Below are positions 9,447-59,764 of a DNA stretch of 64,000 nucleotides, piece by piece. The stretch is taken from NCBI GenBank assembly GCA_951406725.2, contig OX597816.1, positions 170,004,001-170,068,000 on the forward strand, in the 5' to 3' direction. The notes under the pieces were generated by a model that ran no database searches, was not told the DNA's origin, and saw only the letters and a list, made by a program, of their open reading frames with translations. The position numbers and the translations under genes are program-made. Numbering within the stretch: the stretch's first letter is position 1; the number at the start of each line of letters is the position of its first letter. The stretch comes from Octopus vulgaris (lineage: Eukaryota).

Positions 9447-9643
9447 TTCGTTTTTGGATTTGGTTTATATTCTTTATATGAGTTCGTGTGTTGAAGCATA
9501 TTCTGTTGTGTCTGGGGAAATTCATTCTCTTTTAGTGCCTTATTATTTAACACACGCACCGGTGAAATTTTCACTTATTTCTTATTTTTATTTTCTAAAA
9601 TTTTCGTTGCGTCTTGCAACCTTTTCAATAGTCTTGACTCTTA
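9447..9643 (-). mobile_element. Solo Penelope-like terminal repeat fragment between (TA)n tracts
   Basis: Reverse complement shares tgcgtgtgtt...cacaa...ttcaac blocks with the repeats flanking the PLE at 29.76 and 33.9 kb; carries a degenerate ttgaaaag-GTTGC-aagac-GCAAC-GAAA hammerhead-like stem II. Confidence 0.5.
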
Positions 9644-10626
9644 TATATATATATATATATATATATATATATATATATATATATATATATTTATATATAT
9701 TTATATATATATGTTTATATATATATATATATATATATATATATATATATATATATATATATATATATATATATATATATATATATATAGATATACAGAT
9801 AGATAGATAGATAGATAGATAGATAGATAGATAGATAGATAGATAGATAATTAAGTTGGCTAGATACAAGGAGACTTCCTCTCTAAAAGAGGACGAAAGG
9901 TGCAGTGAGCACCAGCATTGCTAGAAATAGCAACTGAAAACACATTTGCTATTTACTGACAGGAGAGACAACCTCCCCGCCACAATGGAGTGGCATTAGA
10001 TTGACATGCCAATTTCGCATAGAATTTAATGTATCGTGAAGTGAAATTCTACCCCGTCAGCATATAGCGATTTTACCATAGTGATCAGTAGCTGACCTGT
10101 ATGAAATAATTGCTCCTATTTGGTTATTGTTTCTCTCTCAAATATAACATATTATATCGACCATACAATTTCGCAATCTATATTCATATGGGACATATTT
10201 TCTTTATAAAGAGCTACAAATGTATTGTGAATCTAAGAATTATATTTAAATGCATTGTGATGTGTAATCAAAATTCATGTTTATTCAGAAATATGCCAAA
10301 AGAGATTAGGGAGAAGATGGAAAGCAGGATTAAGAAAGAGTACGAGTGAAAATGGCAATAATTTTGTTCTTGTGTGAGACATTGTTAATAAATCATTCCC
10401 TTTTATTGATATATTGTTTTCTCAAATTTAAAGGAAGTGATAACTCGTTTACTTTTGCTGAGATAGCACTGAATAATCGATTGTAACATACGATAGTTAC
10501 AGCATTACGTCCCTGTAGACTCAGAGCATCCACAATATAAGAGATAACGAAAATCTGAAAGGCAAATCACTTTCTAAAATCCAAGTGAAATAAGTGAAGA
10601 CTATATGATGAATAAACAGAACCGTG

Positions 10627-11830
10627 TTATTATTATTATTATTATTATTTTCTCTTTATCGCAGGTTTTGTTTCAGCGTAGCGGGCTTACCACCTGCATC
10701 TCACGCTACCATACTATTCGTTCTTTTCAGCTATCTAATACTTTCCTGATTATTCTGGCCGAGCTAAGGAGAAAACCTTTTGTAACAGTTCTACTGGCCA
10801 CTCTATACAAATTCCATTCACATTCCCCTAGATGACTTCTGATACTGTCCCTTAGGACCCAACAATAATTCGCACTATCTTGACCATCATTTTCCATATC
10901 CTGACTACATCATAGTTAAGAAGGTTCTATCTATCTATCTACCTATCTATCTATCTATCTATCTATCTATCTATCTATCTATCTATCTATCTATCTATCT
11001 ATCTATCTATCTGCCTATCTATCTATCTATCTATCTATCTATCTATCTATCTATCTATCTATCTATCTATCTATCTATATATCTATCTATCTATCTATCT
11101 ATCTATCTATCTATCTATCTATCTATCTATCAGTCTGTCTATCTATCTATCTATCTATCTATCTATCTATCTATCTATCTATCTATCTATCTATCTATCT
11201 ATCTATCTATCAGTCTGTCTATCTATCTATCTATCTATCTATCTATCTATCTATCTATCTATCTATCTATCTATCTATCAGTCTGTCTATCTATCTATCT
11301 CTATCTGTCTATCAATCTTTTCACCTTCCTTCTTGACTATTCATGAGTCAGAGGGGCATGCAACGTCAACTATATATCATATGTGATGCATCTTGTCCAC
11401 CACCACTAGGTCCGGTCTGTTATGCCCTAGCACCTGATCTGCTTGGATTGGGAAATCCCAGAGGATTTTGCTAGTCTCCGTCTCTGCCACTCTCTGCTGT
11501 TTGCACTCATAACACGGCTTGCCTCTCTCTATCCCCCACTTTTCGCAGTTTCTAATGTAGCACTTTCGCTATCTGATCGTGTCGCCACAACTTGTAGTGG
11601 TTTAGGGCACGTCTAGGGCATTCGTTCGTGATATGCCAGTATAGTCGTCTCTGTCTCCTTTTTTAGGGTTCCTTTCATCAGCCATTCCCACCTATTTTTC
11701 CCAGCAACTTCTGTTGTGGCTATATGGAATTGACTGTGTAGTCCTTTCTTGCGTAATTTTTCTTCATGTCTTTTTTGTACTTCTCCCTTTGTTTTCCCTT
11801 TTCCTCTATACTCTCAACACTCCCTCGTTA
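10627..11830 (-). mobile_element. Decayed R4/Dong-like 3' fragment ending at (TAA)n, split by (TATC)n
   Basis: Minus strand HYKLWRHDQIA, WDFPIQADQVLGHNRPDLVVVDK, SARIIRKVLDS*; (TTA)n at ~10627-10647. Confidence 0.8.
10927..11316. repeat. (TATC)n microsatellite with recurring cagtctg variants
   Basis: Direct tandem repeats. Confidence 0.97.
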
Positions 11831-12444
11831 TTCCCATCACAAATATCAGTCGTTGGCTAAAATCACCCAAATACGACAACTTTAACACGAAATAGCTTCT
11901 AAAATACGAAACTTTGTCATAAATGTTCAAAGTAAACCGTGTTCTGGGTGAGAAATTTCACCAGTATAAAAAGTTCCAAACTGTTTAGTTAAAAAAATAA
12001 TCAAAAAATCTGTGCGACGAACTGAAGAGATCCTATATGTGCAATTTATACGAGTACTGCTAGAATATTATTAATAGTACTGTCATATGAGTGAACCTTA
12101 GTTGTATGATTCATCAATGTTACATTGTTTTCATTTCTCTCCAGGATGAAGTTCTACAGTATTTATAGACTACAGAGTAAAATAAAATTAGTTATGTCAA
12201 CTTTAAATATCGTTACCTGAAGACTTAATATTTTATGTTCCTGTGAGAGAAATATGTAAGAATAGATACATTTGTACACTATAATCAATTTGTTCTTTCC
12301 AAAAATTATGGTATGTGTGTATATGTGTAAAGCACTCCATGTCGGGACGCTGCCTTCAATGTTATAGCCATAATTCAACTGCTATTTCTAATGTACGTAG
12401 TATTTGTGTATGTTTCTGTCTGTCTTTTGAAACATGTATTTCAT

Positions 12445-56682: not shown

Positions 56683-57616
56683 CTGAGATGGATCTACCAT
56701 AAAACTAATGAAGCTTAAGACTTAGGGCCCCTAAACTAGGAGGTGGCTCACTAAAGCAACATAATTTTTACATTCTGTCAATTTTTTGTTTTTGTAATTT
56801 GCCATGCATATTCTGCTACCAATCTTAGTGAACGTCATATCATACTCCTACGCAGAGTCTAGAAATGCAGTGTCTAACCACGAGTTGTTCGTGTGTCGTT
56901 TCTGCCGGTAGCATAAAAAATAAATGTACAAACGACTCGTAGATAATTCGCTTTACTTGAATTACTTTGGAAACTTTAGCCTCCCCCATCATAAAATATG
57001 TCTACTACTACATCAGCACGGTAGAGATAAGAATTCTTAATTCACACCATTATTTAGTGATCAATAAAAGGGTCTGCCTTCTAATTTTGGACTTACACTC
57101 TGTTCTGTAACAAAGTATTTTTCTACATTAAAACTTGTTTGAATATCCCTTTGTGCATATTGTCTCTAGAAAATGACATTGCAAGGAAGCTGTCATATAA
57201 CAAAACTGTTGATATAAAAAACAGAAAAAATGAATATTTTGTAATTTTGATATGTATCATAATGATGCACCATGCATGTATATAACGCTTCCTTAATTTT
57301 CAACCTCCATTGCTCTAAAAGTGTAAGGCATAACCGGAAAAATATTTGTAGTGATCTGTCATAGAATAACCACATCGACAAAGATATCGGTGATTAACGA
57401 CACCTCGTTTATGGTGGAAAGAGGGCTCACTTTCAGACTCAGTTTTAAGGATTACACATCATAACTCTACCATTTACGCTTTCAGGGCCTCAATCTGGTG
57501 TTCCTTGCAAGGACACGAAAATTCTTTGACTATTGTTACCCTACTGCTACTAGTTGTAAAAGGAGCTCGCATAATATTTTAAGCTTCAGGGCCCCAATAT
57601 TGTAGATCTGCCACTG
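56683..57616. mobile_element. Non-autonomous hAT-type DNA transposon
   Basis: Imperfect TIRs ctgagatggatctac / gtagatctgccactg, 8-bp TSD ccaacacg / ccaacagg, subterminal agctt..agggcccc motifs near both ends. Confidence 0.7.
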
Positions 57617-57689
57617 CCAACAGGGGTGACACCTAAAGATAGTAGGGGAACTAAGAAACGTGAATTCTGCAAGTTCAGAATTAATCTCT

Positions 57690-57790
57690 TGTCTTCATTA
57701 CCAGCAAACAACCAGTGCCCGCCTTGCAGTAGAGCTTTCCGAGCACGCATTGGACCGATTGGCCATAGGCGGAAACACCGTGTCCCGTCG
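57690..57790 (+). mobile_element. Extreme 3' end of an RTE-like LINE ORF
   Basis: CPPCSRAFRARIGPIGHRRKH matches the RTE terminal zinc-finger motif. Confidence 0.6.
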
Positions 57791-59764
57791 TGTATGTGTG
57801 GTTATCGTGTGTGTGTGTGTGTGTGTGTGTGTGTGTGTGTGTGTGTGTGTGTGTGTGCGCGTGTGTGTGTGAATAGAAATAACAATGTTTATATATATAT
57901 ATATGATGGTACTCCAACGGTTACGACGACGAGGGTTCCAGCTGCTCCGATCAATATATATATATATATATATATATATATATATATATACAAAGATTGA
58001 GAGAGAGAGGAAGGAAAGAGAAAGGTCGTCAGAGAAATGTGGGATAAAGATATATTAAAGATATATCTTATATTAACTCTTAAAATGTCCTATGTTACTT
58101 GACATTGGTCATTATTGGGACAATTATCATGCGAGAGATTATTTGGTAAAATCTATCAAAGGTAACAATATTATTATCTTTCCTCCTTTTAATACTCGAA
58201 CATCAACATATATTATTAGTTCGTTCGTCGTAGTCGAAGATAACAACGATGGTACTCTAAAGTATAGATTATTTACCAACATAACGTCGCAGTCCCGGTT
58301 GAGACGAATGTTATTGTTATTTAACCTCATTATGTTGGCAAATTATCTTTACCCTACACACACATACAATAAGAAACGCGGTGTTCAGAAACTTCCGAAT
58401 ACATATAGCTTCCGAAGTTCCAGTACTTTTACCTGCGTATTGGAAAGGCACTCTCTTTCGTCTACTATGTACAGGAAGAAATTTAATGAACACCCTGTGT
58501 AATTAGCATACTCTATCACACGTAGTCTTGGTGAGAATATGACTGCTATCTCCAATAAAATATTCATTCATAATTGTATAATTGTACGACATTCTAATAA
58601 GTTGAAGATCTGATCCTAGCTCTTATGTTAATATTATATCTTTATCCCACATAAATAATAGTATTAGCTCTGTGTCACATGTTAGCTATAACTTTAATAT
58701 TGCTACAATAATGTTTCACTATCTAATAAATGTAATAACGTGTTACTATAGGAATTAATACAATTGCCCTTTAAAAGCAAGTGATACCGAGCAAATTTAG
58801 TGTATAAATATTTTGGTAAAATATATGATATTGGAATATAAATATCATTATGGTTTTCTTTTAGTTGATGCTTTTGACTTCTGCGATCCACCAATTAATG
58901 GCTTTGTTCTTATACATTTTGTATATGACTTCTATAAGTTTGACTGTAAGATCAAACATTGGTATAGATACCTACAAATAAATATATATAAACTTACATG
59001 TGTTTTTATATATATATAAACCTACATGCGTTTGTATGTACACACATACAAACACGCTCACACAAACATATGAATATGTAGAATACATATATGCAAACAT
59101 TCACAGATACACACACACAATATGTATATATGCATACATACACACGCATCCATCCATCCATCCATCCATCCATCCATCCATACATACATCCATACATACA
59201 TACATACATATGTACATACATACATGTGTACATATGCGCAATGACGCACACACATGTGCACAAACGAGCAAACAAACAAAACAAACGAAAAGAACGCAGC
59301 TCCGATAACGGACAGAGTTTGCAAGAGGTTGCAAGAAGCAACGAAATGCCCGTCGTATATATATATATATATATATATATATATATATATATATATATAT
59401 ATATATATTATGTGTTTGTGTGTGTGTGTGTGGTTGTATATATATATATATATGTATATATGTATATATATGTAAGAGTAAAAAAATATACAAACTGGGA
59501 CAAGAACGTGAAACATTTAGAAGACGACACAAAAAACACGGACGGGACATTCGAAGCCTTCAATCTTCAGTCAAGAACCGTATCATCTTCGCAATTTCGG
59601 CTGATTATATATATATATATATATATATATATATATATATATATATATATATATATATATATATATATATATATATAGATAAATAGATAGTTATATAGAT
59701 AGATAGATAGATAGATAGATAGATAGATAGATAGATAGATAGATAGATAGATAGATAGATATGA

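What the first reader, a model, noticed from the sequence alone, without database searches (positions are those of the whole stretch)
9447..59605. Recurrent system: several hammerhead-bearing pLTR families inserted at (TA)n tracts, repeatedly as inverted pairs
Seen: one pLTR family recurs at 17064-18257, 44533-45240, 51450-51915 and 54917-55352, sharing gttcaactccattt and ttgctacc..ggta blocks plus the hammerhead. Other families occur at 47526-47765, 47290-47485/19913-20095, 25092-25215 and 9447-9643. Nearly all abut (TA)n directly, and four show clear fold-back arms of different lengths (about 388, 53, 78 and 135 bp). Penelope RT/GIY-YIG remnants lie close to two of them (42950-44160, 52047-52728). 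Inference: (TA)n-targeting Penelope lineages whose integration routinely produces self-primed palindromes, seeding the genome with ribozyme hairpins.
Basis: partly seen in the sequence, partly recalled or inferred. Interest (0 to 1): 0.75.

Follow-up and report, generated by a model that had tools for sequence, protein, structure and literature searches.

The report
Hydra-type Penelope ends, tail-plus-no-tail pairs
These are the tail ends of several abundant Penelope-type jumping genes carrying predicted self-cutting RNA motifs, sitting in TA repeats and often as back-to-back pairs; the layout is already known, but the pairs likely form when both ends of a DNA break copy one RNA from two fixed start points, rather than by one strand folding back on itself.

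Summary
The observation largely holds. Five window elements are 3' ends (pLTR plus tail) of abundant Penelope-like families with minimal hammerhead motifs. In genome copies, 177 of 205 3' ends abut (TA)n, against 2.5% of random sites, and 64 of 124 insertions are head-to-head pairs.

Three corrections. The four related families belong to the Hydra clade (intact 904-aa ORF on C26); the nearby RT remnants are unrelated Neptune-like insertions. Inversion is family-specific (0 of 64 loci in three short families). Simple self-priming fits poorly: 87 of 88 pairs join one tail-bearing arm to one tail-less arm, both arms share source alleles, either arm can be longer, and 9 pairs do not overlap. Twin priming on one RNA from two fixed sites fits best (inferred).

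The layout, TA targeting, opposite-strand hammerheads and an octopus Hydra family are all published, and this scan noted similar pairs on other DNA of this genome. Not found in print: the strict one-of-each rule, and TA targeting by families that lack the CxCX5C linker proposed to mediate it.

The parts
17064..17714 (-). Family A inverted arm ending at site B (pLTR end, no tail); hammerhead core 17203-17197
   Evidence: abuts (TA)n 17031-17067
17716..18257 (+). Family A forward arm ending at site A (pLTR plus about 155-nt tail); hammerhead 17965-18038
   Evidence: same pLTR follows the intact ORF in L297
44531..44583 (-). Family B short inverted arm ending at site B
44586..45240 (+). Family B forward arm with hammerhead 44967-45039 and tail
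   Evidence: Hydra-type EN upstream in other copies
51449..51852 (-). Family C inverted arm ending at site B; hammerhead 51588-51516 with GAAA mutated to AAAA in this copy
51847..51915 (+). Family C forward arm made of the last 70 nt of the tail only; no overlap with the partner arm; 6-nt microhomology at the joint
54917..55217 (-). Family D arm ending at site A; hammerhead 55197-55124, core mutated in this copy
55218..55352 (+). Family D partner arm ending at site B, starting in stem II (no core)
47521..47603 (-). Family E inverted arm ending at site B; hammerhead core 47592
47612..47765 (+). Family E forward arm with short-stem-II hammerhead 47628-47657 and about 70-nt tail
   Evidence: weak Hydra-type EN upstream in L304
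47293..47486 (-). Family F: short hammerhead repeat (CCGACGA core 47411, GAAACGTTA 47392-47384); no PLE ORF seen beside it; not inverted in 24 loci
19915..20095 (-). Older F-like short repeat with a decayed hammerhead core; not inverted in 20 loci
25092..25246 (-). Family G pLTR, single here, with an internal deletion that removes the cleavage site; a Hydra-type EN with CxCX5C lies upstream in L260
9447..9641 (-). Family H pLTR-like end with two fixed 3' ends 51 nt apart and a UUGAAAA (U3-A8-like) core at 9628; single here, inverted in 14 of 24 loci; clade not determined
59465..59605 (-). Family I: short TA-anchored repeat with CTGAAGA but no canonical GAAA..UH; tandem, not inverted
42952..44118 (-). 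Broken Neptune-like PLE RT/EN remnant; a separate insertion, not the partner of the pLTRs
52063..52745 (+). Broken Neptune-like PLE RT remnant; a separate insertion

Best explanation
The paired elements are 5'-truncated insertions of Hydra-type Penelope-like retrotransposons in (TA)n, each pair made of one tail-bearing and one tail-less arm from the same source, likely produced by twin priming: the endonuclease would cut both strands of the TA tract, and each free end would prime reverse transcription on the same RNA, one at the tail end (site A) and one 70-155 nt upstream (site B). The two cDNAs would stop independently and be joined head to head through microhomology or filler DNA. Shown: identity, target, the two fixed ends, the one-of-each rule, the shared source and the junction anatomy. 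Inferred: the double cut, the single RNA, the order of events and ribozyme activity. The hammerhead appears to be a passenger here, since it does not set the breakpoints.
For: Two sharp 3'-end peaks in each of five families. 87 of 88 curated pairs are A+B (p about 6e-25 against 50%); in core-selected loci alone 63 AB, 1 BB, 0 AA, with A and B ends about equally common (99 and 106). Arms share source alleles: family A 11.4 shared minor alleles per kb against 2.0+-1.0 shuffled, discordant polymorphic sites 0.7 against 12.6+-2.5; 61 of 69 pairs are closer within than between loci. Geometry of 87 pairs: A longer 22, B longer 18, near symmetric 29, tail-only A arm 9, unresolved 9. Asymmetry does not grow with arm divergence (rho 0.02, n=42), and two zero-mismatch pairs are B-longer by 168 nt. 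23 of 37 filler-free joints have 3 nt or more of microhomology against 6% simulated; 36 of 73 have filler. In vitro, a Poseidon PLE cuts and extends both strands and starts at two sites bracketing the tail (PMC11167929).
Against: 29 of 87 pairs are near-symmetric and cluster at short palindromes (family E at CTAG, family A near -390), as self-priming predicts. About half of the insertions (60 of 124) show no partner arm within 1.5 kb. In vitro, the two strands did not differ in start site and priming was without homology, whereas the sites here are TA-like. A shared source is also what a fold-back gives. Families B and E show a weaker same-source signal. Samples are the best-scoring, hence young, 20-30 loci per family, not all copies.
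Confidence: 0.6

Rival explanations
1. Self-priming: one cDNA or an antisense RNA folds back and copies itself (proposed in PMC3846280), the endonuclease trims the hairpin to ends A and B, and later central deletions make the arms asymmetric or non-overlapping.
For: Same-source arms; 29 near-symmetric pairs at short palindromes; microhomology and filler at joints also fit repair. Long palindromes are deletion-prone (own knowledge).
Against: Without a second event it cannot give the 18 B-longer and 9 tail-only pairs. No rise of asymmetry with divergence. Spacer-less palindromes of 230-290 bp per arm persist (L080, L037).
Confidence: 0.27
2. Two separate RNAs prime at the two ends of the break, with a dimer forcing one A and one B start.
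Against: Polymorphic sites are nearly always concordant within pairs in families A, C and D. Gene conversion between arms after insertion could mimic this and was not excluded.
Confidence: 0.09
3. The inverted pairs are assembly artefacts (fold-back chimeras in long reads).
For: The window's own joint at 17715 was not bridged by any of the 32 listed of 428 contig pieces; no long reads were available.
Against: Arms end at two fixed biological sites and differ by about 1%. A contig from a public run reproduces the L040 joint with its filler, and a run labelled as another organism has its own inverted joints.
Confidence: 0.02

Closest known systems
Hydra-clade PLEs, including Hydra-1_Obim of Octopus bimaculoides (Craig et al. 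2021, PMC8557442)
   Same: C-terminal EN without CCHH, DKT, CxxC and CxH at the C terminus, hammerhead in the pLTR, (TA)n target, inverted 5'-truncated copy, tail at one end only.
   Different: Families A, B and D lack the CxCX5C linker (replaced by N-P-x-x-I-x-F-x-S-x-N-S-K-I); ORF 904 aa with two low-complexity inserts against about 700 aa; tail 140-155 nt against 30-40; stem II about 20 bp; RWL in place of RWK.
Adineta vaga Penelope inverted pLTRs (Arkhipova et al. 2013, PMC3846280)
   Same: Head-to-head inverted pLTRs, optional tail on one of them, palindromes at junctions.
   Different: That paper reads them as self-priming on an antisense template; here 27 of 78 resolved pairs need either twin priming or a second deletion.
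Poseidon_Ac in vitro (Frangieh et al. 2024, PMC11167929)
   Same: Two start sites bracketing the tail, AT-rich target, hammerhead cleavage not needed for insertion.
   Different: No one-of-each pairing was reported in the parts read; start sites there lack homology to the target, whereas here they are TA-like.
Minimal PLE hammerheads (Cervera and de la Pena 2014, PMC4209133)
   Same: Type I motif with short palindromic helix III, long helix II, opposite-strand pairs 100-700 bp apart, U3-A8 variant.
   Different: Only the particular families are new; cleavage untested here.
L1 twin priming (bioRxiv 2024.12.14.628481 passages; PMC2837659 listing only)
   Same: Both break ends prime on one RNA; inverted halves joined.
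   Different: In L1 the second priming site is not fixed and the halves usually do not overlap (recalled); here site B is fixed and arms mostly overlap.

Membership tests
EN+ Penelope-like element | Single ORF with telomerase-like RT and GIY-YIG-type EN upstream of the pLTR | tested here: met
   L297 3902-6613, 904 aa, followed by the family A pLTR; top fold matches are telomerases. Pfam gave no hit; the EN is called from alignment with homologues, not from a fold match.
EN+ Penelope-like element | Partial tandem or inverted pLTR with optional tail | tested here: met
   Tandem heads in L297 and L310; inverted pairs in 64 of 124 insertions.
Hydra clade | DKG modified to DKT | tested here: met
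   SDKT in L297.
Hydra clade | RWK motif near the N terminus | tested here: inconclusive
   RWL in L297; homologues vary (RWK, RWR, RWM, RWA).
Hydra clade | CCHH absent; CxxC and CxH around the conserved E and N | tested here: met
   CNLCVSE...N...CPH in family A copies, equivalents in B, C, D; the L297 copy itself reads FPH.
Hydra clade | CxCX5C linker before the EN | tested here: not met
   Absent in A, B, D; frame broken there in the C copies. Present in 79 of 83 homologues by pattern, in all 9 Hydra rows seen in Fig. S7 and in family G. A-D are therefore filed as a derived Hydra-type lineage, not as typical members.
Hydra clade | Hammerhead in pLTR and (TA)n target | tested here: met
   Descriptor hits 30/30, 29/30, 23/24, 26/30, 27/30 against 0/266 shuffled; TA adjacency 177 of 205.
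Hydra clade | Placement in an RT tree with the published reference set | not tested
   Reference sequences were only viewed in the supplement.
Type I minimal hammerhead | Core, three helices, covariation in helix II | tested here: met
   88.7% of cells paired, 6 pairs with changes on both sides, 0 of 500 shuffles reach the score; 7 related sequences and a structure partly derived from them, so this is supportive only.
Type I minimal hammerhead | Self-cleavage | not testable with these tools
   No assay; no raw RNA reads.
Neptune clade (window RT remnants) | CX2-5CxxC linker and CCHH | tested here: inconclusive
   Decayed in the window copy; 43% and 61% alike to the L077 ORF, which has both motifs. 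Naiad is excluded by the C-terminal EN.
Non-LTR retrozyme (families F, F2, I) | Tandem non-coding units, each with an intact hammerhead | tested here: inconclusive
   A few tandem pairs (L232, L338, L344); intact core only in F.

The most novel reading that the evidence does not exclude
PLE inverted repeats arise by obligate two-site twin priming on a single RNA: one start at each border of the tail, one per DNA end, so the tail works as a spacer that positions two RT active sites. And an octopus Hydra-type lineage has lost the linker zinc finger yet still homes to (TA)n, so that finger is not what aims these enzymes.
Probability: 0.45. Interest if true: 0.58.

Novelty: new member of a known kind. 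Interest (0 to 1): 0.36.

Why it matters
How PLEs make their inverted ends and their microsatellite bias is named as open in PMC8557442. Here thousands of young copies with two fixed ends give countable predictions that separate twin priming from the published self-priming idea. The linker-less families test the proposed role of the zinc finger in TA targeting. The ribozyme hairpins themselves look like by-products.

Tried and rejected
Rfam found no hammerhead, and Pfam found nothing in the intact ORF.

My first idea, two different RNAs per pair, was rejected by allele sharing. Breakpoints at the cleavage site were rejected. Linking the pLTRs to the window's RT remnants was rejected.

The empty-site test was informative for only 2 of 86 insertions: L148 lies in a SINE's internal microsatellite (68 of 95 empty paralogues have 8 nt or more of TA), and L205 likewise but with short tracts (0 of 8). 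Addition or expansion of TA during or after insertion is therefore not excluded.

Raw-read runs laid only 1 and 34 reads and were uninformative. No RNA holder listed. The window's own joint was not bridged in the listed pieces.

The exact-match microhomology count failed and was redone with mismatch tolerance. The first pair count was out of register and was redone. The dimer prediction was not run. The conserved GGTA block as a splice donor or an RT-binding site is untested; the tail folds gave only weak covariation.
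Full report
SETTING. The window is G000:C3:170004001-170068000 of a 2.8-Gb genome. It is likely an octopus; this is inferred from an Argonauta homologue, the genome size and earlier notes. It has about 60 (TA)n tracts in 64 kb, so the background had to be measured.

OBSERVATION. Rfam gives no hammerhead, but the motif is the minimal type I form: for family A, UUC-CUGAAGA, a long helix II, GAAAC-ACGU-GUA, then GAA. 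A descriptor hits 135 of 144 sampled loci of families A-E against 0 of 266 shuffles, and helix II shows compensatory changes across A-D. Several window copies are decayed, and three listed families have no canonical core.

FAMILIES. Own-genome searches gave 96 to 2873 first-look candidates per query, of which 40 were scored and 20-30 fetched; these are not copy numbers. Best copies are 97-100% alike for A, C and D and about 94% for B, so these families are young. Walking upstream gave an intact family A copy (L297): inverted arm, tandem tail fragment, 904-aa ORF, pLTR, tail. Its model matches telomerase RTs best. It aligns at 30-36% with about 700-aa homologues and has DKT, no CCHH, and CxxC/CxH, the Hydra-clade features. 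B, C and D carry the same type of EN in sense upstream; E and G carry more distant ones. The window's RT remnants give no hit to this ORF and match a Neptune-like ORF; TA tracts separate them from the pLTRs.

TARGET. In core-selected loci, 177 of 205 3' ends have 8 nt or more of TA within 8 nt. Random positions give 529 of 21377, SINE ends 25 of 124 and 34 of 114, and the 5' heads of single copies 14 of 67. One insertion sits in a SINE's own microsatellite, which is present in most empty paralogues; a second such case had only short tracts. The element's own sequence does not continue as (TA)n beyond site A in tandem copies, though both sites are TA-like for a few bases.

ARCHITECTURE. Each of A-E has two fixed 3' ends, 156, 151, 140, 143 and 70 nt apart. 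Of 124 unique core-selected insertions, 64 are head-to-head pairs (A 16 of 23, B 11 of 29, C 11 of 22, D 12 of 26, E 14 of 24); 4 loci were set aside, and partners beyond 1.5 kb are missed. G and H are inverted in 11 and 14 of 24 loci; F, F2 and I in 0 of 64. One search listed 93 pairs. I dropped five before counting: L297, L310 and L087 (tandem or internal hits; the last two had been scored AA and BB), L304 (mis-paired) and L003 (near duplicate). That leaves 87 A+B and 1 B+B. Part of the family A set was picked with a tail-containing query; the core-only sample gives the same rule (63 AB, 1 BB, 0 AA).

MECHANISM. The arms of a pair come from one source (69 pairs with 40 nt or more of overlap, 1.1% mismatch within against 2.5% between). 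A single fold-back that starts at A makes the A arm the longer one, and a fold-back from B cannot add a tail (inference). Yet 18 pairs are B-longer and 9 have an A arm wholly inside the tail, among them the window's 51449-51915. Rescue by later deletion is possible but finds no support in age. Twin priming on one RNA explains all of these features: a TA tract cut on both strands offers two equivalent ends, one RNA offers two start sites, and PLE RTs lack RNase H (recalled), so the RNA could be copied twice. Joints show microhomology or filler. Breakpoints avoid no region in particular and do not favour the cleavage site (one arm per pair is constrained by the query). Against this reading: the excess of symmetric joints at short palindromes, and the many single copies.

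LINKER. Craig et al. tie (TA)n targeting to the linker zinc finger. That motif is in 79 of 83 homologues that reach the C terminus (24 of 107 do not), the other four keeping most cysteines, and in all 9 Hydra rows I saw, including Hydra-1_Obim. Families A, B and D lack it, yet 115 of their 129 sampled ends abut TA.

REALITY OF THE PAIRS. A contig from a public run reproduces the L040 joint with its filler, and a run labelled as another organism shows different inverted joints. The window's own joint was not bridged in the pieces listed.

LITERATURE SEEN. PMC11167929: parts 1-2 of 4. PMC8557442: passages, section 11, supplement rows and parts 7 and 58. PMC3846280, PMC4209133, PMC13282606 and bioRxiv 2024.12.14.628481: passages. 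bioRxiv 2026.07.22.740005: part 1 of 5. PMC2837659: listing. The layout, a tail at one end, TA targeting, opposite-strand hammerheads and an octopus Hydra family are all in print. Searches found no paper applying twin priming to PLEs or reporting linker-less Hydra elements; subscription papers and bioRxiv supplements were not searched.

VERDICT. Real, and mostly a known kind. The added value is the quantified one-of-each, same-source rule and the linker loss. Interest 0.36.

Noticed in passing
L077:170-2650: A family A tail-ended arm is joined, through a short fold-back and repeated filler, to a 5'-truncated Neptune-like copy in the opposite direction that ends at a TA-rich tract: a possible mixed-family pair or a later insertion.
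   Followed up: partly
window 18187-18200, 45171-45184, 51855-51868, 54977-54964: TTGCTACC..GGTA is conserved in the tail of A-D: a candidate RT-binding element or splice donor.
   Followed up: partly
family A about -390 and family E about -157 from the tail end: Arm heads pile up at short palindromes; in E this is the 5' edge of hammerhead helix I. May mark RNA 5' ends.
   Followed up: partly
window 2700-7620: Two broken non-LTR RT elements (RVT_1 and zf-RVT hits) with (AAT)n and (GAA)n expansions inside the reading frame.
   Followed up: no
window 12446-12858, 18784-19205, 37098-37530, 41253-41667, 54502-54887, 56093-56530, 63495-63970: At least seven copies of a 400-bp SINE-like repeat with an internal CA/TA microsatellite that itself receives PLE insertions (L148, L205).
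   Followed up: partly
window 45308-46960: Broken RT remnant (RVT_1) of another non-LTR family.
   Followed up: no
window 17510-17702: A 100-bp two-copy tandem repeat that is part of the family A 3' UTR.
   Followed up: yes
L298 (G000:C4:99381500-99391400): An inverted pair with arms of 3.1 and 3.7 kb, nearly two whole elements head to head, 0.3% apart in the stretch compared.
   Followed up: partly
L069:2471-5735 and L073:5696-6445: A near-complete Poseidon-like PLE and a Hydra-type remnant that keeps CxCX5C; at least three PLE clades share this genome.
   Followed up: no
window 25758-25961 and 27028-27229: A 204-bp inverted repeat, 98% alike and 1.07 kb apart, possibly DNA-transposon ends.
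   Followed up: no
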